In this document: positions 2,216 through 43,331 of the stretch, piece by piece | How the letters are laid out: every line of letters begins with the position of its first letter | Position numbering within the stretch: position 1 is the stretch's first letter | IMG/VR virus record: IMGVR_UViG_3300045988_175656 | Direction: 5' to 3' (one strand) | Length of the DNA: 64,000 nucleotides | Origin: a virus | The notes under the pieces: generated by a model | Databases searched by the model: none | Seen by the model: the letters and a program-made list of their open reading frames with translations, nothing else | Told to the model about the DNA's origin: nothing | Translations under genes and position numbers: made by a program

Positions 2216-2323
2216 TAGAATGCTTGGTGGTAGAAAGTTTACATTTAGATATTTTTATTCATAAAAATAATATGAAATATAACTAAATAATAATCTATGT
2301 GGGTTCGAATCCCATCATTCTAA
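2216..2323 (+). tRNA. tRNA-shaped gene with expanded interior (anticodon not assignable)
   Basis: 7-bp acceptor tagaatg/cattcta and T-arm gtggg-ttcgaat-cccat. The candidate anticodon stem tagat/atcta encloses about 42 nt instead of 7. Confidence 0.4.
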
Positions 2324-2679: not shown

Positions 2680-2799
2680 ACAGTATTAGCTCAGTTGGTT
2701 AGAGCATCAGCCCATAATAGAAATTTTTCAGTATTTGAAAAAACAGCAATATAATCTTAAACACGCAGAGGGTCATTGGTTCGAGTCCAATATACTGTT
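2680..2799 (+). tRNA. tRNA-shaped gene (probably CAU class) interrupted by the conserved hairpin/AGCAA module
   Basis: Acceptor acagtat/atactgt, D-arm gctc-agttggtta-gagc, T-arm attgg-ttcgagt-ccaat. Anticodon stem tcagc/gcaga encloses 53 nt beginning ccataat. The insert carries tttttca-gtatt-tgaaaaa followed by cagcaatataa (2724-2754). Confidence 0.6.
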
Positions 2800-5238: not shown

Positions 5239-5435
5239 CAATGGTTAGCTTAATTTGGTAAAGCGTTTCCCAATGATATAATTTCTTGCGCAATTGGAAT
5301 TATGTCATAACGACATGGAAAAGAATGGGTGTTGAAAAAAGAAGGATTTAGTAGAGTTTATTAGAGGTGCGCACCTCTAATAAAGGAAACTTGATTTGGA
5401 ATGAAGTAAAAAAGGTTCGAGTCCCCCACCATTGA
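5239..5435 (+). tRNA. tRNA-shaped gene with a ~110-nt insertion in the anticodon region and a weak T-stem
   Basis: Perfect acceptor caatggt/accattg, D-arm gctt-aatttggta-aagc and T-loop ggttcgagtcc. The stem tttcc (5266-5270)/ggaaa (5385-5389) encloses 114 nt, including the palindromic hairpin tagaggtgcgcacctcta. The T-stem has only 2 clear pairs. Confidence 0.4.
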
Positions 5436-5462
5436 CGATGTTTAATTATAAAATTATATTTC

Positions 5463-6786: not shown

Positions 6787-6850
6787 AGGAAACGTAGCAA
6801 ATATTTTAACTATCGAATTATTAATTTGAACAAAGTAAAAAATGTTTCCT
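6787..6850 (+). repeat. AGGAAAC...GTTTCCT stem element, copy 1 (small RNA or processing element)
   Basis: The 7-bp terminal stem aggaaac/gtttcct encloses gtagcaaatattttaac...aaaaaat. Copies also at 12574, 18556 and 18966. Confidence 0.6.
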
Positions 6851-8126: not shown

Positions 8127-8240
8127 GGTGAGATTGAAATGTTGGTTAAATTTTTTCAGTATTGGAAAATTAGCAAATATTTAGAAATTCAGTTTAACAG
8201 TAAATTAAATATAACGTTGGTTCGATTCCAGCTCTCACCG
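8127..8240 (+). tRNA. tRNA-shaped gene carrying the conserved hairpin/TAGCAA module (paralog of 12452-12566)
   Basis: Acceptor ggtgaga/tctcacc and T-arm gttgg-ttcgatt-ccagc. The interior ttttttcagtattggaaaattagcaaatattt... (module 8152-8180) replaces a normal anticodon arm. Confidence 0.55.
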
Positions 8241-8282
8241 CAAAACGTTTTTTAACTTTGAAAAGTTGCATATGTTATTTAA

Positions 8283-8298
8283 ATGTTGTATATTTGCA
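8283..8298 (+). promoter_or_regulatory. Bacteroidota-type promoter
   Basis: atgttgtatatttgca; precedes the lipoprotein gene. Confidence 0.6.
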
Positions 8299-12451: not shown

Positions 12452-12566
12452 AGAGGGGTTGAAATATTGGTCAAAATTTTTTCAGTATTGAAAAATTAGC
12501 AAATATTTAGAAATTCAGTTTAACAGTAAATTAAATATAATGTTGGTTCGATTCCAACCCCCTCTA
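12452..12566 (+). tRNA. tRNA-shaped gene carrying the conserved hairpin/TAGCAA module (paralog of 8127-8240)
   Basis: Acceptor agagggg/cccctct and T-arm gttgg-ttcgatt-ccaac. The interior is nearly identical to 8134-8232, including the module tttttcagtattgaaaaattagcaaatattt (12477-12506). Confidence 0.55.
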
Positions 12567-12573
12567 CAAATTA

Positions 12574-12637
12574 AGGAAACGTAGCAAATATTTTAACTAT
12601 CAAACTTTTAATTTGACGCAGTAAAAAAATGTTTCCT
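12574..12637 (+). repeat. AGGAAAC...GTTTCCT stem element, copy 2
   Basis: aggaaacgtagcaaatattttaactatc...aaaaaaatgtttcct. Sits 9 nt upstream of tRNA-Arg. Confidence 0.6.
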
Positions 12638-12646
12638 GTTTTTTAT

Positions 12647-12719
<73 letters not shown>

Positions 12720-12782
12720 CTCAAAAGTAGTTGTTTGTGAGTTACTCTACGTTTATGATAAATTAAAATGTGGCTTTCAATT

Positions 12783-13705: not shown

Positions 13706-13914
13706 AGCGATAGAGGGGGACGGTGATTTAAGTTTTGATATGTAAAAATTAGCTACTTTTATATATTTCCTACTTTTAATTGTAGGCAAAACAAGCATTG
13801 TTTTTAGAAAACAGATGTGGCACGTGACATGTTAAATTGAGTTGTAACAATGTTAAATCTAAACTCGCCACTCGCTTAGGGTGGAGAAAACAGGTTCGAC
13901 TCCTGTTATCGCAA
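13706..13914 (+). tRNA. tRNA-shaped locus with very large interior (low confidence)
   Basis: T-arm acagg-ttcgact-cctgt. 6-bp acceptor gcgata/tatcgc with a mismatched terminal pair. About 130 extra nt, and a candidate anticodon-like hairpin ccact-cgcttag-ggtgg. Confidence 0.35.
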
Positions 13915-13921
13915 CAAATAT

Positions 13922-14063
13922 GGTGTAAATAACATTCATTTTTATGTAAATTCTATTTAAGTGTGCATAGAATAGAAACCTTATATAAATGATGAAAGGG
14001 TTTGATATGGAAGAGTAATTAACTTCAATTTAAGTATCGGTGGTTCGAATCCATCTTACATCA
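13922..14063 (+). tRNA. tRNA-shaped locus with ~65-nt extra interior
   Basis: Acceptor ggtgtaa/ttacatc and T-arm ggtgg-ttcgaat-ccatc. Internal hairpins ttctat...atagaa and aaacc...gggttt. No canonical anticodon loop. Confidence 0.4.
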
Positions 14064-16198: not shown

Positions 16199-16272
16199 GC
16201 TGAAGTAGCACAATTGGTAGTTGCACCGCACTTGTAATGCGGATGTTGTGGGTTCGAGTCCCACCTTCAGCT
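16199..16272 (+). tRNA. tRNA-Thr(UGU)
   Basis: Acceptor gctgaag/cttcagc, anticodon stem ccgca/tgcgg, loop cttgtaa, T-arm gtggg-ttcgagt-cccac. Confidence 0.9.
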
Positions 16273-16278
16273 CAATAA

Positions 16279-16357
16279 CACTGTTAATCCAGAGATGGTA
16301 TCAAAGGTGGTTTTCATGTGTGTACAACATGAATGGGTTCGAATCCTATTACAGTGA
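16279..16357 (+). pseudogene. degenerate tRNA-like element
   Basis: Acceptor cactgtt/tacagtg (6 of 7 pairs), hairpin catgt-gtgtaca-acatg, T-arm atggg-ttcgaat-cctat. The D-arm and variable region do not fit a cloverleaf. Confidence 0.35.
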
Positions 16358-16909: not shown

Positions 16910-17022
16910 GGGGAAGTAGCTCAATTGGTAGAGCAAATGTTAAAAAAATGTTTTTAGTATTAAAAATGTAGCAATTAAATGAGGAAATCATTGTGTCATT
17001 GGTTCGATTCCAATCTTCCCCG
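16910..17022 (+). tRNA. tRNA-shaped gene carrying a covarying copy of the hairpin/TAGCAA module
   Basis: Acceptor ggggaag/cttcccc, D gctc-aattggta-gagc, T-arm attgg-ttcgatt-ccaat. The stem aatg/catt encloses ~49 nt with ttttta-gtat-taaaaa + tgtagcaattaaat (16951-16980). Confidence 0.55.
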
Positions 17023-17068
17023 CTTTTTAACAAAAAATTAACATTGAATATTTGGTATTATAAAAAAT

Positions 17069-17087
17069 AAGTTGTATATTTGCAATG
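17069..17087 (+). promoter_or_regulatory. Bacteroidota-type promoter
   Basis: aagttgtatatttgcaatg consensus copy. Confidence 0.65.
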
Positions 17088-17106
17088 TGAAAAAGATAAA
17101 AATAAT

Positions 17107-17185: not shown

Positions 17186-17399
17186 GGTGTGGTAGTTAAA
17201 TTGGAAACTTTCTTTTTATGTCAATAACATGTTTCATTCGCCAACAATTAGAATGATAGTGTGAGATATAAAATAGTTTATAAACTAAATGTTGAATAAG
17301 TATTCGAATTAAGTTCAGTAATAAGTTTATAAATGAAACGATAAGATAATGCTCCCAGATTTGAGGGAGTGATTGCAGGTTCGACTCCTGTTCATACCG
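17186..17399 (+). tRNA. tRNA-shaped locus with ~140-nt interior expansion
   Basis: Acceptor ggtgtgg/tcatacc (with G-U pairs), D-arm agtt/aact, T-arm gcagg-ttcgact-cctgt. The hairpin ctccc-agatttga-gggag lies just 5' of the variable region. Confidence 0.4.
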
Positions 17400-17588: not shown

Positions 17589-17721
17589 CACGGGTTCGTC
17601 TAATGGTTAGGACGCTTAAAATTTTTAAAACTTTTTTCAGTATTGAAAAAATAGCAAAATAACTAATTTAAAATTATGCAATTCTGAAGCAGAAATAGAG
17701 GTTCGAGTCCTCTACCCGTGT
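17589..17721 (+). tRNA. tRNA-shaped gene carrying the conserved hairpin/TAGCAA module
   Basis: Acceptor cacgggt/acccgtg, D gtc-taatggttag-gac, T-arm agagg-ttcgagt-cctct. The stem gctt/aagc encloses ~70 nt with ttttttcagtattgaaaaaatagcaaaataa (17632-17660). Confidence 0.5.
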
Positions 17722-18555: not shown

Positions 18556-18660
18556 AGGAAACGTAGCAAATAATTTAAATTGGATAATAAATTTAAACTC
18601 GAAATTTTAATTTTAGAAGGTTCAAATCCTTTAACTCTTAGGAGTATAAACTTGTTTCCT
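18556..18660 (+). repeat. AGGAAAC...GTTTCCT stem element, copy 3 (longer, with embedded T-arm-like hairpin)
   Basis: aggaaacgtagcaaataatttaaa...gaagg-ttcaaat-ccttt...cttgtttcct. Confidence 0.55.
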
Positions 18661-18965: not shown

Positions 18966-19026
18966 AGGAAACGTAGCAAATAATTTAAACATTATTAAAA
19001 GGGTTAATAAATAAAAAATGTTTCCT
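18966..19026 (+). repeat. AGGAAAC...GTTTCCT stem element, copy 4
   Basis: aggaaacgtagcaaataatttaaac...aaaaaatgtttcct. Sits 6 nt upstream of tRNA-Asn. Confidence 0.6.
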
Positions 19027-19032
19027 GTACAT

Positions 19033-38215: not shown

Positions 38216-39082
38216 ATGTTTAAAAAATTATTCAAAATGGGTGGAGATAGTAATTTTAATAAACTATCTTTACTTTTGATAACCATAATAGGTTTCACAT
38301 TAATAATTGGTGCGTGGTATTTTGTAACTTATTTACAAATTATTCCAACCAAAGTACTTCCTAATCCTTTTGATGTAATTGGGAGCTATGGTAAATTGAT
38401 TAGTGAATATAACATGTTTGGTAATGCGTGGTATTCAATTAAATTAAATTTTATGAGTTATTTTTATGCAATTTTGATAGCATTACCAATTGGATTTTTT
38501 ATTGCATTATATCCTATTAATAATATTTTAATTGGTAAATATATTAATTCTGTTAGGTATTTACCAATTCCTGCAATGAGTGGTATTTTTATTGCTATAT
38601 TTGGTTTAACATTTGGCATGAAAGTGTCTTTTTTAACATTTGCGTTATTAATTTATATTTTACCAGCAGTTGCTAATAAAGTTAATGATTTACAAAATCC
38701 AAATAATGATAAAGATTATGTGTATCTTCAAACGATAAGAACATTGGGTGGTAGTAATTGGCAAAAGTTTAAATATGTTTATTTTCCTTATGTAACACGA
38801 AATATTTCAAATGAAATTATTAATTTAACAGGTATTTCATGGTCATATGTTGTTATTTGTGAATTACTTTATAAAGACGGTTCAATTAGTGGTATTGGGG
38901 CGATGATTAATAATATGATGCGCCAATCTTATGTGCCTGAAGCATATGCTTTATTATTTTTAGTAATTCTTATTGGGTTTGGGCAAGATTATTTGTTGAA
39001 AGGATTGGATAAAGTATTATTTCCATCAAAATACAATAAAAAGCCGTTTAAAATTAGTAATTGGTTTGTAACAGAAAAATAA
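38216..39082 (+). CDS. ABC transporter permease (NitT/TauT family)
   Basis: Six hydrophobic segments and a binding-protein-dependent permease layout. Confidence 0.75.
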   Translation: MFKKLFKMGGDSNFNKLSLLLITIIGFTLIIGAWYFVTYLQIIPTKVLPNPFDVIGSYGKLISEYNMFGNAWYSIKLNFMSYFYAILIALPIGFFIALYPINNILIGKYINSVRYLPIPAMSGIFIAIFGLTFGMKVSFLTFALLIYILPAVANKVNDLQNPNNDKDYVYLQTIRTLGGSNWQKFKYVYFPYVTRNISNEIINLTGISWSYVVICELLYKDGSISGIGAMINNMMRQSYVPEAYALLFLVILIGFGQDYLLKGLDKVLFPSKYNKKPFKISNWFVTEK

Positions 39083-39088
39083 TAAAAT

Positions 39089-40147
39089 ATGGCAGGAAGA
39101 TTTACATCACTTTTTTCAAAAAGTGAAAAAAAGCCTGAACAAACAGTTCAGCAAACAATTGAAGTTGTAGAACAAACGACTTCTCCAGAAGTCATTGATA
39201 TTCAACAAACAATTACAGAAACAGCAAAAAAGAGTGCATCATTTTTAAATGGGGTTATGGATATTGTAAAAGAAGAATTATCAATACCACCAGTAACAAA
39301 TATTGTATCTACTCCTATTCAACAAGATACAAATGGAAAATTTGAGTGTGAAGCTGTTGATGTTATTAATTTATCAAATATTTGCCAATCATTTAAAACT
39401 GATAATGGTGAGTTTAAATTATTTGATAATTTTAATTTAGATATTAAAGATTTTAAAGATGTTGGACAATTTGTTTCCATTATGGGGGCTTCAGGTTGTG
39501 GTAAATCACAATTGTTGAAAATTATATCAGGACTAAATAAACCAACATCAGGTTCAATCAAAATATATGGTAAAGAACAAACAGATAAAGATTCTATACC
39601 AATGGTATTTCAGCAATATAGTTCTTATCCTTGGATGACTGTACTTGAAAATGTAGCACTTCCTCTTAAAATGAGAGGTGTCCCTAAAAAAGAACGAGAA
39701 GAACAAGCTCGTAATATGTTAAAAATTGTAGGATTAGAGGGACAAGAAAATAAATGGGCGCAATATCCAATTTTAAGTGGTGGTCAATTACAACGTGTAT
39801 CTCTTGCTCGTAATCTTGTATTTTCATCACAAATTTTGTTATTAGATGAAGCAACTGGGGCATTGGATATTAAGTCTAAAAGAGATATGCAAGATACACT
39901 TTTAGATGTGTTTTATAACGCAAAACTTGACCCAACTATCATTTCAGTAACACATTCAATTGAAGAAGCTGTTTATTTGTCAAATAGAGTTTATATATTG
40001 ACTGCTAATCCATGTACAATTCATTCTGTAATTGATATTGATTTTGGAAGCCAATATGCAAGAAGAACTTCTGAAGTTAGACAAACAGCTAAATTTGCTG
40101 AATATGTTAAACAAATTGAGACTATAATGGATGAAATAAACAAATAA
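39089..40147 (+). CDS. ABC transporter ATP-binding protein with ~95-aa N-terminal extension
   Basis: Walker A GASGCGKSQ, signature LSGGQLQRVSLAR, Walker B LLLDEATGALD. Confidence 0.85.
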   Translation: MAGRFTSLFSKSEKKPEQTVQQTIEVVEQTTSPEVIDIQQTITETAKKSASFLNGVMDIVKEELSIPPVTNIVSTPIQQDTNGKFECEAVDVINLSNICQSFKTDNGEFKLFDNFNLDIKDFKDVGQFVSIMGASGCGKSQLLKIISGLNKPTSGSIKIYGKEQTDKDSIPMVFQQYSSYPWMTVLENVALPLKMRGVPKKEREEQARNMLKIVGLEGQENKWAQYPILSGGQLQRVSLARNLVFSSQILLLDEATGALDIKSKRDMQDTLLDVFYNAKLDPTIISVTHSIEEAVYLSNRVYILTANPCTIHSVIDIDFGSQYARRTSEVRQTAKFAEYVKQIETIMDEINK

Positions 40148-40175
40148 AACTGTCATTTTGACAGTTTTATTTTGT
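40147..40175 (+). terminator. rho-independent terminator
   Basis: Stem aaactgtc/gacagttt followed by tattttg. Confidence 0.6.
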
Positions 40176-40219
40176 GGCATATAATTTGAGAATAAAAAGA
40201 TAAAAATTAGAAAGTAAAA

Positions 40220-42142
40220 ATGAAAAGAATTTTAGGTATTGATTTAGGCTCTACAAACTCAGCAGTGAGTGTGATTGAGAGTGGAAAAGCAATAATTGTA
40301 GTTAATGAGGAAGGTAGAAGAACTACCCCATCTGTGATTGCATTAAAGAATGGGGAAAGAAAAGTTGGAGAAGCTGCAAAAAGACAACGTGTTGTTAATC
40401 CTAAAGAAACTGTATCAATAATTAAAAGATTTATGGGGGCTGATTTTAATTCTTCTGAATGTCAAGAAGCTATTAAAAAAGTACCTTATGAAATTATTAA
40501 TAAGGATGGTAAAGCAAGAGTTCTAATTGAAAACAGAGAATATTCTCCTGAAGAATTATCTTCTTATATCATTTCTAAACTTAAAAAATGTGCCGAAGAT
40601 TATGTAGGTGGGGAAATTAAAGATGCTGTTATTACAGTTCCAGCATATTTTAATGATTCACAACGTACAGCAACTAAAGTCGCAGGTGAACTAGCTGGTT
40701 TGAATGTGTTAAGAATTATTAATGAACCAACAGCAGCTATTCTTTCTTCTGATATTGATATTAAACATGGTGAGAAAAATATTATGGTGTGTGACTTTGG
40801 TGGTGCAACAACTGATTTTTCTGTATGTAATTTGTCAGAAGGATTAACAGAAGTATTATCAACTTATGGTGATGTATTCCTAGGTGGTAGTGATATTGAT
40901 AATGCTATTGCAGAATGGATTATAAGCTCATTTAATGAAGAAAATGGTGTGGATTTAAAGAGTGATGCCCAAGCATTACAACGTGTCGTAGAAGCGGCTG
41001 AAACTGCTAAAATAGAGCTATCATCTTCTAGTTCTGCTGAAATTAATTTGCCTTATATTTGTAGTAAAGATAATACACCATTACATTTACAATATACATT
41101 AACAAGAGCTAAGTTTAATCAATTAACACAACCATTGATTGATAAACTGATTAAATGTGGTAAAGAGTCTTTGAAAAAAGCAAATCTTAAAGCAAATGAA
41201 CTTAATGGTATTTTGCTTGTTGGTGGGTCTTGTCGTTGTTTGAATGTACAAGATGCTTTAACCAAAGAATTTGGTGTAGAACTATTGAAATCAGCTAATT
41301 TGGATGAAGCTGTTTCATTAGGTGCAGCTATTCAAGCTAATATTATAGTTGGTGGAGAAGGAAGTTCTGATATGGTATTACTTGATGTAACTCCACTTTC
41401 AATGGGTATTGAAACAATGGGTAATGTGATGACAAAACTTATTGATGCAAATACAACAATTCCATGCAAAAAAAGCCAAATTTTCACAACTGCTGTGGAT
41501 AATCAGCCATCTGTTGATATTCATGTATTACAAGGTGAAAGACCAATGGCTAAAGATAATAAAACAATTGGTATGTTCCAATTAACTGATATTTTACCAG
41601 CAAGACGTGGTGTGCCACAAATTGAAGTAACATTTGATATTGATGCTAATGGTATTTTGAATGTTTCTGCAAAAGATAAAGGTACAGGAAAAGAACAGTC
41701 AATTAGAATTGAAGCAAGTAATGGTCTTTCTGATGCTGAAATTGAAAAAATCAAGCAAGAAGCAAAAGAACATGAAGCAGCAGATAAGAAATTGAAAGAA
41801 GAAGCTGATATAATTAATAATGGAGATGCTATGGTTTTTCAAACTGAAAAACAGATTGAAGAATATGGTGATAAAATTTCTTCAGATAGTAAGAAATCTT
41901 TAGAAGAACTAATTGAAAAGTTAAAAAATTCTTTAAAAGATAGAAATATATCTGATATTAAAGAAAACACTGATAAAATCACATCACAATGGCAAAAAAT
42001 TACTTCTGAAATGTATGCAACAGGTACTAATGGTGGTACATCTAATTTTGAAGATATTTTAAGAGGTGCAGCAAATGGTAATACAAAAACAGATACCAAA
42101 GAAGATAATGTAACTGATGCTGATTTTGAAGAAGTTAAATAA
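40220..42142 (+). CDS. dnaK: Hsp70 chaperone DnaK
   Basis: [19 protein letters not shown] and [14 protein letters not shown] signatures; 640 aa. Confidence 0.95.
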
Positions 42143-42188
42143 TATTTAAGGTAAATTAACATTAATAATGGTGCAGATTACGAATTAA

Positions 42189-42205
42189 TTTTGTATATTT
42201 GTACC
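42189..42205 (+). promoter_or_regulatory. promoter-like box enclosed in a 9-bp stem
   Basis: ttttgtatatttgtacc lies inside the helix aataatggt (42166-42174) / accattatt (42202-42210). Confidence 0.4.
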
Positions 42206-42239
42206 ATTATTGGTTTAATAACACATTAAAGAAAGATAT

Positions 42240-43331
42240 ATGGCAGAAAAAAGAGATTATTATGAAGTGCTAGGAGTTGATAGAAATTCATCAAATGATG
42301 ATATTAAAAAGGCATATCGTAAGAAAGCAATTGTATTACATCCTGATAAACAACAAGGAAAAACAGATGAAGAAAAGAAAATAGCAGAAGAAGAGTTTAA
42401 AGAAGTTGCTGAAGCATATGAAGTTTTATCAAACCCTCAAAAAAGAACTGAATATGACCAATTTGGTTTTGCTGGACGTAATGGTCAAGGATTTGATATT
42501 AACATGCAAGACATCATGGAAGAAATGATGCGTATGAATCCATTTGGCAATCCATTTCATAGAAATCAATCACGCCAATATATGAAAGGTAGTGATATAA
42601 GAATACCACTTGTTTTATCATTAGAAGATATATTTAATGGGGTGCATAAAACAGGCAAATATAAAAGAAAAATAAAATGTCCTGATTGTAATGGTCTAGG
42701 TGCAAAAAATAAAGATGATATAACAGAATGTCCTCATTGTCATGGTACAGGTGTGTATGTTGAAACTGTAATGCAAGGAAATATGATTTTTCAGAATCAA
42801 ACAACATGCCCATATTGTTATGGTAAAGGTAAAATAGTTTCCAAACCATGTGATAGATGTCATGGAGAAGGTCTTATCACAGTTGAAGAGACTATTGAGA
42901 TTGATGTACCAAAAGGGGTAGAAGAAAATATGGCAATAACATTTAATGGTATGGGAAACTTCCCACAAGGAGAAGGTGTTCCTGGGGATTTAATTGTCAT
43001 TATTAAACTTAAACCTCATGGTAGATTTGATAAACAAGGTGCAACAATTTATGCAATGAAAGAAGTGTCAGTTATTGATTGTATTCTGGGTGTTAATTCT
43101 ACAATTCAGGGGATTGATGGAAATATTTACAAATTTAGAATACGTCAAGGTACAATGAATGGTGAACAATATAGGATTGCAGGAAAAGGTTTGCCAATAC
43201 TTCATACTGATAAACGTGGTGATTTGATTGTTATGATTAAACAAGATATGCCAAAAAATCTTACATCAGAAGAAATTGAATTGCTAAAAAAGTTAAGAGA
43301 AATGCCACATTTTAAAACTGAAGAAGAATGA
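42240..43331 (+). CDS. dnaJ: co-chaperone DnaJ
   Basis: J domain DYYEVLGV...HPD and four CxxCxGxG zinc-finger repeats. Confidence 0.95.

What the first reader, a model, noticed from the sequence alone, without database searches (positions are those of the whole stretch)
8127..8240. Two module-bearing tRNA-shaped paralogs share a near-identical body but have completely different, fully compensated acceptor stems
8134-8232 and 12459-12558 are almost identical over ~100 nt, differing at about six positions (five substitutions plus one 1-nt indel). The 7-bp acceptor stems are unrelated in sequence: ggtgaga/tctcacc versus agagggg/cccctct. Both are perfectly paired, so all seven pairs changed on both strands. 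The one difference inside the T-stem converts a U-G pair into U-A.

This preserves helices while changing sequence, which is the signature of selection on a folded RNA rather than a decaying duplicate. It suggests the acceptor helix carries the specificity, for an aminoacyl-tRNA synthetase, a processing enzyme or a partner protein.
Basis: seen in the sequence. Interest (0 to 1): 0.65.

Follow-up and report, generated by a model that had tools for sequence, protein, structure and literature searches.

The report
tRNA-shaped partners of phage Ro-like protein
The two look-alike tRNA-shaped genes are real structured RNAs carrying a small conserved hairpin-plus-AGCAA module that, across many phages, sits inside or beside tRNA genes next to a divergent Ro60-like protein gene, so they are most likely Y-RNA-like partner RNAs and not ordinary decoding tRNAs.

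Summary
Copies A (8127-8239) and B (12452-12565) differ by 5 substitutions plus 1 indel over about 99 nt. Both have perfect 7-bp acceptor stems, but in register only 4 of 7 pairs differ (all compensated); G2, G4 and G6 are unchanged.

Neither copy is a canonical tRNA. Both score below the Rfam threshold, have A33 and lack a normal D stem.

Both carry a module: a helix, then (Y)AGCAA, then a second helix. It occurs 5 times in this window. About 40 covarying hairpin variants occur in other phages and MAGs.

In those relatives the module usually sits after nt 28/29 of a tRNA anticodon stem, and deleting it restores a perfect anticodon arm. It lies next to a DUF2828 gene in 8 of 11 module loci versus 0 of 109 others (p=2e-10). 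That protein's model matches phage Ro60/TROVE structures. The window encodes it at 48199-49851, followed by an RNA ligase.

Best reading: Y-RNA-like, tRNA-scaffolded partners of a phage Ro-like RNP. The acceptor contrast probably reflects paralog divergence plus gene conversion of the body. Main rival: a new protein-spliced tRNA intron. No RNA or binding data exist.

The parts
8127..8240 (+). Copy A: tRNA-shaped RNA gene. Acceptor 8127-8133/8233-8239, discriminator G8240.
   Evidence: Rfam best hit is tRNA-Sec at only 16.9 bits. Orthologs in L238, L239, L240 and L302.
12452..12566 (+). Copy B: paralog of A. Acceptor 12452-12458/12559-12565, discriminator A12566. Inserted between tRNA-Met and a leader hairpin.
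   Evidence: Rfam tRNA 19.2 bits, below the threshold of 29, with a 43-nt insertion placed in the D loop. Absent from L240 at the orthologous site.
8137..8182 (+). Module arm of A. P1 is 8137-8143/8176-8182. GG-containing D-loop remnant at 8144-8150. P2 hairpin is 8151-8157/8164-8169 with loop AGUAUU at 8158-8163. AGCAA motif at 8172-8176.
12462..12508 (+). Module arm of B. P1 is 12462-12468/12502-12508. P2 is 12477-12483/12490-12495 with loop AGUAUU at 12484-12489. AGCAA at 12498-12502.
   Evidence: Covariance-model hit at 12478-12502, weak at 7.3 bits.
8193..8209 (+). Anticodon-arm-like hairpin of A: UUUAA-CAGUAAA-UUAAA. The 7-nt loop has A at position 33. The identical hairpin in B is at 12519-12535.
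8216..8232 (+). T arm of A: GUUGG-UUCGAUU-CCAGC. In B it is 12542-12558 with CCAAC.
2680..2799 (+). Module-bearing tRNA X1. The body resembles a tRNA-Met type. The module, with ACAGCAA at 2743-2749, lies in the anticodon region.
   Evidence: Rfam tRNA 46.9 bits with a 52-nt insertion..
16910..17022 (+). Module-bearing tRNA X2. Hairpin loop AGUAUU at 16956-16961, UAGCAA ending at 16974.
   Evidence: Rfam tRNA 52.3 bits with a 49-nt insertion. It is the top hit of a covariance model built only from modules of other phage groups (13.9 bits).
17589..17720 (+). Module-bearing tRNA-like X3. AGUAUU at 17639-17644, UAGCAA ending at 17657.
12574..12637 (+). Stand-alone stem-bulge element directly 3' of B: stem AGGAAACG/UGUUUCCU with GUAGCAAAUA after the 5' strand. 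Copies begin at 6787, 18556 and 18966. Each of the three complete copies (6787, 12574, 18966) lies just 5' of a tRNA.
48199..49851 (+). DUF2828/DUF7788-vWA protein, a divergent Ro60/TROVE homolog and the candidate protein partner.
   Evidence: Pfam and PHROG matches. AF2 model pLDDT 86. Top PDB fold matches are the phage phiLo Ro60/TROVE structures, E 5e-7 and 1.5e-5.
50618..52177 (+). RNA ligase (PHA02142 OB fold plus RNA_ligase domain) in the same gene string as the Ro-like gene.
   Evidence: The same neighbourhood (RlaP, HAD_SAK_2, ligase) occurs in homologous loci.
52193..52254 (+). 62-nt tRNA-like minihelix lacking an anticodon arm, directly after the ligase gene. It contains GUAGCGAAUG, which includes a CGAA motif.
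   Evidence: Rfam tRNA 27.1 bits. Fold z=-3.1.

Best explanation
A and B are paralogous tRNA-derived non-coding RNAs in the tRNA array of a huge AT-rich phage, probably of Bacteroidota. They are most likely not decoders.

Each keeps three tRNA features: the acceptor stem, the T arm, and a GG-containing D-loop remnant that could form the tRNA elbow. These features would allow RNase P/Z processing and give a stable L-shaped scaffold.

The D arm is replaced by a long arm carrying a conserved module: helix, then (Y)AGCAA in a bulge, then a second helix.

This module is the common denominator of a wider family of phage RNAs. The family has three architectures: stand-alone stem-bulge RNAs, modules embedded in tRNA anticodon stems, and tRNA-like scaffolds such as A and B. 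Family members are encoded beside, or in the same genome as, a divergent Ro60/TROVE-vWA protein (DUF2828). That gene usually travels with RNA ligase and end-healing genes.

Inferred mechanism. The module docks the Ro-like ring, as the stem-bulge(CGAA)-stem of Y RNAs docks Ro60. The tRNA-shaped part provides processing and stability, and tethers tRNA-recognising enzymes or substrates. The resulting RNP would serve RNA repair or anti-defence during infection.

Inferred history. The near-identical bodies with different, compensated acceptor stems are best explained by two paralogs that each keep a paired acceptor helix, with the central roughly 90 nt recently homogenised by gene conversion or recombination.

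Shown: sequence anatomy, covariation, genomic linkage, and the Ro-like fold of the protein model. Inferred: binding, function, and the conversion history.
For: - **Anatomy of A and B.** They fold as acceptor, module arm, hairpin and T arm. All differences between them are compensated or helix-neutral.
- **The module recurs in the window.** Pattern AGTATT-N7-10-AGCAA gives 5 matches versus 0.29 expected. All five lie in tRNA or tRNA-like bodies.
- **The module occurs elsewhere with different hairpin sequences.** About 40 distinct P2 stems are all paired and each is followed by (A)CAGCAA. In a 17-sequence alignment, 6 of 7 pairs have changes on both sides. The covariation score is 0.83, against 0.36 for shuffles and 0.25 or less for slid registers. 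G-U pairs place the RNA on the sense strand.
- **Linkage to DUF2828.** In an unbiased genome scan, 8 of 11 loci with a module-bearing tRNA encode a DUF2828 homolog within 8 kb. The tRNA usually lies about 150-250 nt upstream on the same strand. None of 109 other loci has one (Fisher p=2e-10). The same holds in viral contigs.
- **Cultured phage.** In Felixounavirus Alf5, three stem+UACAGCAA elements sit in the tRNA array directly after the DUF2828 gene.
- **The protein has a Ro-like fold.** The DUF2828 model (pLDDT 86) matches the phage phiLo Ro60/TROVE structures over its full length. tblastn also reaches a mycobacteriophage 'Ro-like RNA binding protein'.
- **The known Ro system is analogous.** Y RNAs are stem-bulge-stem RNAs with a CGAA/GNCGAA motif. 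They are encoded next to Ro60, and bacterial YrlA contains a tRNA-like domain (PMC4201824; PMC12135203).
- **Intermediate topology.** L256 7939-8056, directly 3' of its DUF2828 gene, has a terminal stem, ACAGCAA and a T-arm domain. This is the circular permutation of the embedded module.
- **Model-based link to the window.** A covariance model built only from modules outside this lineage ranks X2 first in the window. It recovers 4 of the 5 module sites among 33 hits (Poisson p about 3e-7).
- **Published precedent.** A preprint reports that the Ro60-like gp130 of phage Bas63 lies upstream of its tRNA genes and counters the ppl defence. The authors suggest that some of those tRNA genes are Y RNAs (PMC11482910).
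- **Conversion history.** Differences are graded from the ends to the centre. L238-A shares two B-type states. B and another module-bearing gene are presence/absence polymorphisms among close relatives.
Against: - There are no transcript, processing or binding data.
- In this window A and B lie 36-40 kb from the Ro-like gene, not beside it.
- The 62-nt tRNA-like RNA at 52193-52254, which has a true CGAA motif, is a better-placed candidate partner.
- The motif in A and B is UUAGCAA, not ACAGCAA. The covariance model scores B at only 7.3 bits and does not list A at E<=10.
- No Rfam Y RNA or YrlA match was found.
- In most relatives the RNA around the module is a perfect tRNA with U33 and R37. 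That fits a spliced intron as well as a scaffold.
- Hairpin pairing in the alignment is partly guaranteed by how the sequences were collected.
- A-type and B-type genes were found only in one narrow phage lineage. Their own structure is therefore supported by few independent changes.
Confidence: 0.5

Rival explanations
1. The module is a new kind of protein-dependent intervening sequence (intron) in phage tRNA genes. It would be cut out and the halves rejoined by a phage kit comprising the Ro-like protein as platform, an unknown endonuclease, end-healing enzymes and RNA ligase. A and B would then be intron-bearing tRNA genes, with the module in the D loop, or degenerate derivatives of such genes.
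For: - Deleting the module after nt 28/29 restores perfect 5-bp anticodon stems and 7-nt loops with U33 and R37 in many independent genes. The restored anticodons include Asn GUU, Thr UGU/GGU, Ile GAU/UAU, Lys UUU and Arg CCU.
- An arm at that position should clash with ribosomal contacts to the anticodon stem (established knowledge, not tested here).
- DUF2828 neighbours are RlaP, HAD_SAK_2 and RNA ligase genes.
- Relatives show presence/absence of other intervening sequences, for example a 117-nt insert inside the anticodon of the tRNA-Arg ortholog in L302.
Against: - For the five window copies, no deletion restores a canonical arm. A and B keep a loop CAGUAAA with A33 whatever is removed.
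- The same motif occurs in stand-alone stem-bulge RNAs that interrupt nothing.
- No endonuclease candidate was identified.
- No bulge-helix-bulge can be drawn at the inferred junctions, judged by inspection of L396 and L042.
- The module is far too small for self-splicing introns, and Rfam finds no group I intron.
- Anticodons switch between close relatives, which is unusual for tRNAs a phage depends on.
Confidence: 0.22
2. One reading: the acceptor helix is the specificity determinant. The two paralogs were selected to present different acceptor identities, to a synthetase, a processing enzyme or a partner protein, on one common body.
For: - Substitutions are strongly concentrated in the acceptor stem (p=6e-6).
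- All four changed pairs are compensated.
- The discriminator base also differs: G or A in A-type copies, A in B.
Against: - Three of the seven pairs are unchanged.
- The gradient of differences and the shared states between L238-A and B fit recombination or gene conversion.
- B is dispensable in close relatives.
- Across the wider family the acceptor stem simply follows whichever tRNA hosts the module, while the module is the conserved, protein-linked part.
- There is no canonical anticodon loop or D stem for a synthetase to use.
Confidence: 0.12
3. A and B are non-functional relics: pseudogenes of module-bearing tRNAs produced by the high gene turnover of the tRNA array.
For: - Both score below the Rfam tRNA threshold. 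They have a degenerate D arm and A33.
- B is absent from a close relative.
- The array holds many other aberrant tRNA-like elements.
- All 20 amino acids are already covered by canonical tRNAs.
Against: - Both copies keep perfect acceptor, T, P2 and hairpin helices.
- Every difference between the copies and among the orthologs of A is pair-preserving or in a loop, except the outer two P1 pairs in L239.
- The module loop and the AGCAA motif are identical in all five window copies.
Confidence: 0.1
4. The module acts at the DNA level, as a promoter, recombination site or miniature mobile element, not as RNA.
For: - Whole module-bearing genes come and go between close relatives.
- The motif is shared between different contexts.
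Against: - G-T 'pairs' in the hairpins work only as G-U on the sense strand.
- Hairpin stems covary while the sequence changes.
- The module always has the orientation of the tRNA.
- It does not resemble the Bacteroidota-type promoter boxes seen nearby (TTG...TATATTTG).
Confidence: 0.04

Closest known systems
Bacterial and phage Y RNAs (YrlA, Yrl1/Yrl2) bound by Ro60/Rsr
   Same: - Small RNAs encoded next to a Ro60-family gene.
- A stem-bulge-stem element carries a short conserved purine-rich motif: CGAA/GNCGAA there, (Y)AGCAA/ACAGCAA here.
- A tRNA-like domain with T arm, D-loop features and an acceptor-like stem.
- Occurrence in RNA repair contexts.

Sources: PMC4201824, PMC12135203.
   Different: - The protein is the DUF2828 branch, not a recognised TROVE protein. 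No sequence-level PDB hit was found.
- The motif differs.
- The topology is permuted. Here the RNA ends are the tRNA acceptor stem and the Ro-type module is an internal side arm closed by a tetraloop. In YrlA the ends form the Ro-binding stem.
- In many relatives the host RNA is otherwise a complete tRNA with a proper anticodon loop.
- There is no Rfam match.
Ro60-like gp130 of Escherichia phage Bas63 (Felixounavirus), PhageMaP preprint PMC11482910
   Same: A phage Ro60-like protein is encoded directly upstream of the tRNA array. The authors speculate that some of those 'tRNA genes' are Y RNAs, and they report an anti-defence role against ppl. Felixounavirus Alf5 has a DUF2828 homolog in the same position, with ACAGCAA elements in its array.
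   Different: The passages retrieved from the preprint describe no RNA motif or structure. Whether gp130 is orthologous to the Alf5 DUF2828 protein was not checked directly. The window's phage is unrelated at the nucleotide level.
Archaeal and eukaryotic protein-spliced tRNA introns, including non-canonical positions such as 29/30
   Same: Short (about 40-55 nt) intervening sequences in tRNA genes. Removing them restores a canonical anticodon arm. RNA ligase genes are nearby.
   Different: - No bulge-helix-bulge motif can be drawn at the junctions.
- The setting is bacteria and phages, where no splicing endonuclease is known.
- The insert carries its own conserved hairpin and motif, which also occur outside tRNAs.
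- In A and B removal does not give a canonical tRNA.
Engineered tRNA scaffolds and viral tRNA-linked small RNAs (own knowledge: Ponchon and Dardel tRNA scaffold; MHV68 tRNA-miRNA units)
   Same: A tRNA body provides processing signals and stability for an inserted functional RNA arm.
   Different: Those are artificial or eukaryotic-virus cases. This comparison is an analogy recalled from memory, not a tested relationship.

Membership tests
Canonical tRNA (Rfam RF00005) | Covariance-model score at or above the gathering threshold of 29 bits | tested here: not met
   A has no tRNA hit; its best hit is tRNA-Sec at 16.9 bits versus a threshold of 47. B scores 19.2 bits with a 43-nt D-loop insertion. 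ARAGORN calls neither.
Canonical tRNA (Rfam RF00005) | 7-bp acceptor stem and a 5-bp T stem with a GUUCGAUUC-type T loop | tested here: met
Canonical tRNA (Rfam RF00005) | Anticodon loop of 7 nt with U33 and purine 37, and a 3-4 bp D stem | tested here: not met
   The loop is CAGUAAA with A33. The D stem is replaced by the long P1/P2 arm. No deletion restores a canonical arm.
Y RNA / YrlA (Ro60 partner RNAs) | Encoded adjacent to a Ro60-family gene | tested here: inconclusive
   For the module family this is met: 8 of 11 versus 0 of 109 loci (p=2e-10), plus L109, L256, L396 and Alf5. For A and B themselves the Ro-like gene is in the same genome but 36-40 kb away.
Y RNA / YrlA (Ro60 partner RNAs) | Partner protein is a Ro60/TROVE ring with a vWA domain | tested here: met
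   The AF2 model (pLDDT 86, pTM 0.87) has its best PDB fold matches to 9kop and 9l5y_B, the phiLo Ro60/TROVE structures (TM 0.43-0.52; E 5e-7 and 1.5e-5). This rests on the fold of a predicted model; no solved-structure sequence hit was found.
Y RNA / YrlA (Ro60 partner RNAs) | Stem-bulge-stem with a CGAA / GNCGAA motif | tested here: not met
   The architecture is present (helix, bulge, helix), but the motif is (Y)AGCAA/ACAGCAA, not CGAA. Only the separate RNA at 52193-52254 has CGAA.
Y RNA / YrlA (Ro60 partner RNAs) | Match to the Rfam Y RNA or YrlA models | tested here: not met
   No such hit at the gathering threshold in the whole window, nor at E<=10 on A or B.
Y RNA / YrlA (Ro60 partner RNAs) | Physical binding to the Ro protein | not testable with these tools
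   Needs RIP/CLIP or EMSA.
Hairpin-ACAGCAA module family (defined here) | Hairpin of 6-9 bp with a G-initiated tetraloop or short loop, followed within 0-3 nt by (A)CAGCAA/YAGCAA and flanked by an outer helix | tested here: met
   A has P2 UUUUUUC/GGAAAA, then UU, then AGCAA, with P1 flanks. B is the same. The loop AGUAUU is also found in modules of unrelated phages, L042 and L108.
Hairpin-ACAGCAA module family (defined here) | Recognition by a covariance model built only from modules of other lineages | tested here: inconclusive
   X2 ranks first (13.9 bits, E 0.27). X3, X1 and B are listed at 7-8 bits, and A is not listed at E<=10. Four of five sites among 33 hits is unlikely by chance (p about 3e-7), but the individual scores are not significant.
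Group I intron in tRNA | Intron of about 200 nt or more with a P1-P9 core; Rfam Intron_gpI match | tested here: not met
   The module is 41-52 nt. Rfam reports only tRNA hits in the window.
Archaeal-type BHB tRNA intron | Two 3-nt bulges separated by a 4-bp helix spanning both splice sites | tested here: not met
   By inspection of family members with defined junctions (L396 Lys, L042 Asn), the intron start cannot form the 4-bp helix with the start of the 3' exon. This was not tested with a dedicated program.

The most novel reading that the evidence does not exclude
The hairpin-ACAGCAA module is the first protein-dependent, non-self-splicing tRNA intron class in bacteria and phages. It is inserted after nt 28/29 of the anticodon stem and keeps the tRNA masked. 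It is then recognised by the Ro-like DUF2828 protein and removed or re-sealed by the co-encoded end-healing and ligase enzymes. This would give phages a switchable or nuclease-resistant tRNA reserve. A and B would be derivatives that have become pure regulatory or decoy RNAs.
Probability: 0.2. Interest if true: 0.92.

Novelty: new variant of a known kind. Interest (0 to 1): 0.7.

Why it matters
Ro60-Y RNA particles are known from animals, some bacteria and a few phages. The large DUF2828 branch occurs in 586 cultured phage records, including FelixO1-like, Listeria, Staphylococcus, Campylobacter and Vibrio phages. It has no described RNA partner.

This work provides a concrete candidate: a short helix-ACAGCAA-helix element that appears in three architectures. 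That makes the biology of the branch directly testable in cultured phages, for example by RIP-seq of the Ro60-like gp130 of Bas63 or the DUF2828 protein of Alf5.

It would also explain many 'aberrant' or uncalled tRNA genes in phage tRNA arrays.

If the module turns out to be spliced, it would be a new intron class in bacteria and phages. If it is not spliced, it is a natural tRNA scaffold displaying a protein-binding arm, linking phage tRNA arrays to RNA repair and anti-defence.

Tried and rejected
- **Protein-coding reading.** A 38-codon ORF starts at ATG 8139 and runs through A. It is broken in B by the 1-nt indel and ATA, and in L239 by TGA. Rejected.
- **Hairpin loop as an anticodon or codon mimic.** The loops (AGUAUU, AGUUGAC, AGCAUUC and others) lack U33, and the same loop occurs on different tRNA bodies. 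Rejected.
- **Pseudoknot between the P2 loop and the tail after AGCAA.** It is possible in A, B and X1 (GUAUU with AAUAU) but not conserved in other members. Rejected by inspection.
- **Promoter, CRISPR-repeat mimic, small ribozyme, box C/D.** Considered from memory; no defining motif is present and Rfam gives no hit.
- **First viral pattern scans.** These returned mostly chance matches; only a few loci were real.
- **ARAGORN intron mode.** It gave implausible anticodon and intron calls for the window copies.
- **Nucleotide search against GenBank phages.** No related genome was found.
- **Literature searches.** Searches for a small phage tRNA intron or for DUF2828 found nothing specific. The Burroughs and Aravind 2016 RNA-repair paper could not be opened.
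- **DUF2828 loci at 55-69% identity (L385, L387, L389).** No module was seen within 10 kb in these. Linkage is therefore not universal at that distance.
Full report
**Setting**

The window is AT-rich (27-34% GC), with nearly all long ORFs on the + strand. It encodes phage-type and 'huge phage'-type functions, including DnaK, DnaJ, a sigma-70 factor and an RNA ligase.

A tRNA array spans about 6.8-20.2 kb. ARAGORN tRNAs there, covering all 20 amino acids.

No GenBank phage is similar at the nucleotide level. Close relatives are IMG/VR and ENA contigs of 220-381 kb. Promoter-like boxes of the TTG...TATATTTG type suggest a Bacteroidota host; this is an inference from known promoter consensus.

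**The observation**

Copy A (8127-8239) and copy B (12452-12565) align over their whole length.

- Both acceptor stems are perfect 7-bp helices.
- In register, only pairs 1, 3, 5 and 7 differ, each on both strands. G2-C, G4-C and G6-C are shared. 'Completely different' is therefore an overstatement.
- The clustering of change in the acceptor is real: 8 of 14 nt versus 5 of 99 nt (p=6e-6).
- The T-stem change is U-G to U-A, as stated.
- Two more body substitutions also turn G-U into A-U in predicted helices.

**What A and B are not**

- Neither reaches the Rfam tRNA threshold, and ARAGORN does not call them.
- The anticodon-like hairpin has the loop CAGUAAA, with A33.
- There is no normal D stem. 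Rfam's best alignment of B puts a 43-nt insertion in the D loop.
- A 38-codon ORF through A is not conserved in B or in orthologs.

**The module**

Both copies carry a hairpin with loop AGUAUU, followed by UU-AGCAA.

- The same arrangement occurs 5 times in the window, against 0.29 expected. The other three copies lie in the anticodon region of otherwise good tRNA bodies: 2680-2799, 16910-17022 and 17589-17720.
- Unrelated IMG/VR phages carry the same loop and motif on different, compensated stems, such as GUGUCU/AGACAC and GUGCCU/AGGCAU. Some pairs work only as G-U on the sense strand.
- Pooling all loci gave about 40 distinct hairpins, each followed within 0-3 nt by (A)CAGCAA.
- A 17-sequence alignment has changes on both sides at 6 of 7 pairs and clearly beats shuffled and slid controls.
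- Caveat: full pairing was partly a selection criterion in my scripts. However, the genome scan pattern did not require a hairpin, and every tRNA-context hit had one.

**Position in tRNAs**

In relatives the module usually interrupts the 5' strand of the anticodon stem after nt 28/29.

- Deleting it restores perfect arms with U33 and R37. Examples are Asn GUU, Thr UGU/GGU, Ile GAU/UAU, Lys UUU and Arg CCU.
- Close relatives sometimes differ in the anticodon of the same gene: GUU versus GUC, and UGU versus UAU.
- For the five window copies, no deletion restores a canonical arm.
- In A and B the module sits in what was the D loop. A GG remnant (UUGGUU) is retained, and an outer helix P1 (AAAUGUU/AAUAUUU) takes the place of the D stem.

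**Linkage to a Ro-like protein**

- In phage group L109 the module-bearing array ends directly upstream of a 519-aa protein. That protein is homologous to window ORF 48199-49851 (24% identity, E 2e-30).
- Both proteins are DUF2828/DUF7788-vWA proteins.
- The AlphaFold model of the window protein (pLDDT 86) has its two best PDB matches, over its full length, to the Ro60/TROVE structures of Thermus phage phiLo.
- Homologous loci carry RlaP, HAD_SAK_2 and RNA ligase genes. In the window the gene is followed by an RNA ligase.
- In the scan of bacterial and archaeal genomes, 11 of 120 pattern hits are true module-bearing tRNAs. Eight of these have a DUF2828 gene within the 8-kb locus, usually 150-250 nt downstream on the same strand. 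None of the other 109 loci has one (p=2e-10).
- Among 357 chance loci from earlier scans, only module loci have DUF2828.
- Loci fetched through DUF2828 homology (40-55% identity) yielded further module-bearing tRNAs: L396 and the L412 group.
- DUF2828 homologs occur in 586 cultured phage records.
- In Felixounavirus Alf5 the gene precedes the tRNA array. Three unannotated stem+UACAGCAA elements lie in that array.

**Relation to Y RNAs**

Published Y RNAs are stem-bulge-stem RNAs with a CGAA/GNCGAA motif. They are encoded next to Ro60, and bacterial YrlA contains a tRNA-like domain (PMC4201824; PMC12135203).

The present module has the same architecture with a different motif. Three forms are seen:

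- **Stand-alone stem-bulge RNAs.** These include the Alf5 elements and the window's four 'leader' elements at 6788, 12575, 18557 and 18967 (GGAAAC-GUAGCAAAUA...; three close with GUUUCC, the 18557 copy lacks that 3' strand).
- **A terminal-stem form with a T-arm domain.** This is L256 7939-8056, directly 3' of its DUF2828 gene.
- **The embedded form.** This is the circular permutation of the terminal-stem form: helix X, motif, helix Y.

A preprint reports that the Ro60-like gp130 of Bas63 counters the ppl defence. It speculates that some adjacent tRNA genes are Y RNAs (PMC11482910). I found no description of the motif or of the embedded architecture in the searchable library.

**Do A and B belong to this family?**

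A covariance model built only from modules outside this lineage puts X2 first in the window. It lists X3, X1 and B among 33 hits, which is unlikely by chance (p about 3e-7). The individual scores are weak, and A itself is not listed. Membership therefore rests mainly on shared anatomy and on the Ro-like gene in the same genome.

**History of the pair**

- Orthologs of A in L238, L239, L240 and L302 keep the same acceptor stem.
- B is present in L238 but absent from L240, where tRNA-Met is followed directly by the leader element.
- Another module-bearing gene, present in L261, is absent from the window.
- The tRNA-Arg ortholog in L302 carries a different 117-nt insert. Gene turnover in the array is therefore high.
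- A/B differences are dense at the ends and nearly absent in the centre.
- L238-A shares two B-type states.

I infer divergence of two functional paralogs followed by recent homogenisation of the centre by gene conversion. This inference is not tested.

**Verdict**

The finding is real and interesting, though less for the acceptor stems than for the module it points to.

- Best explanation (about 0.5): tRNA-scaffolded, Y-RNA-like partners of a phage Ro-like RNP.
- Main rival (about 0.2): a new protein-spliced tRNA intron.
- Not shown: expression, processing, binding and function.

Noticed in passing
window 6787-6850, 12574-12637, 18556-18612, 18966-19030: Four copies of a repeated element AAGGAAACGUAGCAAAUAWUUUAA. 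In three of them (6787, 12574, 18966) it closes as AAUGUUUCCUGU, forming a 9-bp stem with the motif right after the 5' strand, and these three lie just 5' of a tRNA. The 18556 copy lacks the closing strand. They resemble stand-alone Y-RNA-type stem-bulge RNAs and the ACAGCAA elements of Felixounavirus.
   Followed up: partly
window 52193-52254: A 62-nt tRNA-like RNA (acceptor, hairpin and T arm, with no anticodon arm) lies directly after the RNA ligase gene. It contains GUAGCGAAUG, which includes the CGAA motif of Y RNAs. It may be the cognate partner of the Ro-like protein.
   Followed up: partly
L302 (minus strand, from 7046), compared with window 12647-12720: In a 381-kb relative, the ortholog of the window's tRNA-Arg(UCU) is interrupted inside the anticodon (CUUC|...|UAAGG) by a 117-nt insert. 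The insert contains a 12-bp acceptor/T-arm-like minihelix. This is a second kind of intervening sequence and is polymorphic between relatives.
   Followed up: no
window 2216-2322, 5239-5436, 13814-14062, 16244-16356, 17186-17398: Further long tRNA-like elements have a perfect acceptor stem and T arm but other inserts of 30-140 nt. No tool calls them as tRNAs. Eleven T-loop motifs in the window have no ARAGORN tRNA call.
   Followed up: no
L261 8971-9084 vs L264 8767; L412 20809 vs L418 21320; L042 6533 vs L173 995 / L210 6168: The same module-bearing tRNA gene has different anticodons in closely related phages: GUU vs GUC, UGU vs UAU, and UCA vs GCC vs GUC. The loop architecture is kept. This may reflect diversifying selection on the anticodon.
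   Followed up: partly
L569 (Escherichia phage Alf5, NC_031082.1) 6725, 6891, 7432: Three unannotated AGACCNNUUACAGCAA stem elements, and several unannotated tRNA-like genes, lie in the tRNA array directly after the DUF2828 'RNA-binding protein' gene of a cultured Felixounavirus.
   Followed up: partly
L389 9088-9375: A tRNA-like RNA of about 290 nt lies just upstream of a DUF2828 gene in a 390-kb phage contig. Its acceptor is GCCCGUU/AACGGGC, it has a T arm, and it contains UCAGCAAU. Its nature (tmRNA-like, or intron-containing) was not determined.
   Followed up: no
window 8270-8296, 17068-17088, 48110-48135: A recurrent GTTGTATATTTGCA(A/T)T motif occurs upstream of genes. It matches the Bacteroidota -7 box TAnnTTTG, pointing to a Bacteroidota host.
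   Followed up: no
window 38216-47553: A block of cellular-type genes unusual for phages. Genes scanned here: ABC transporter ATPase, DnaK (40220-42142), DnaJ (42240-43331) and a sigma-70 family factor (46663-47553). An IF3-like gene is inferred only by synteny with L385 and was not scanned in the window.
   Followed up: no
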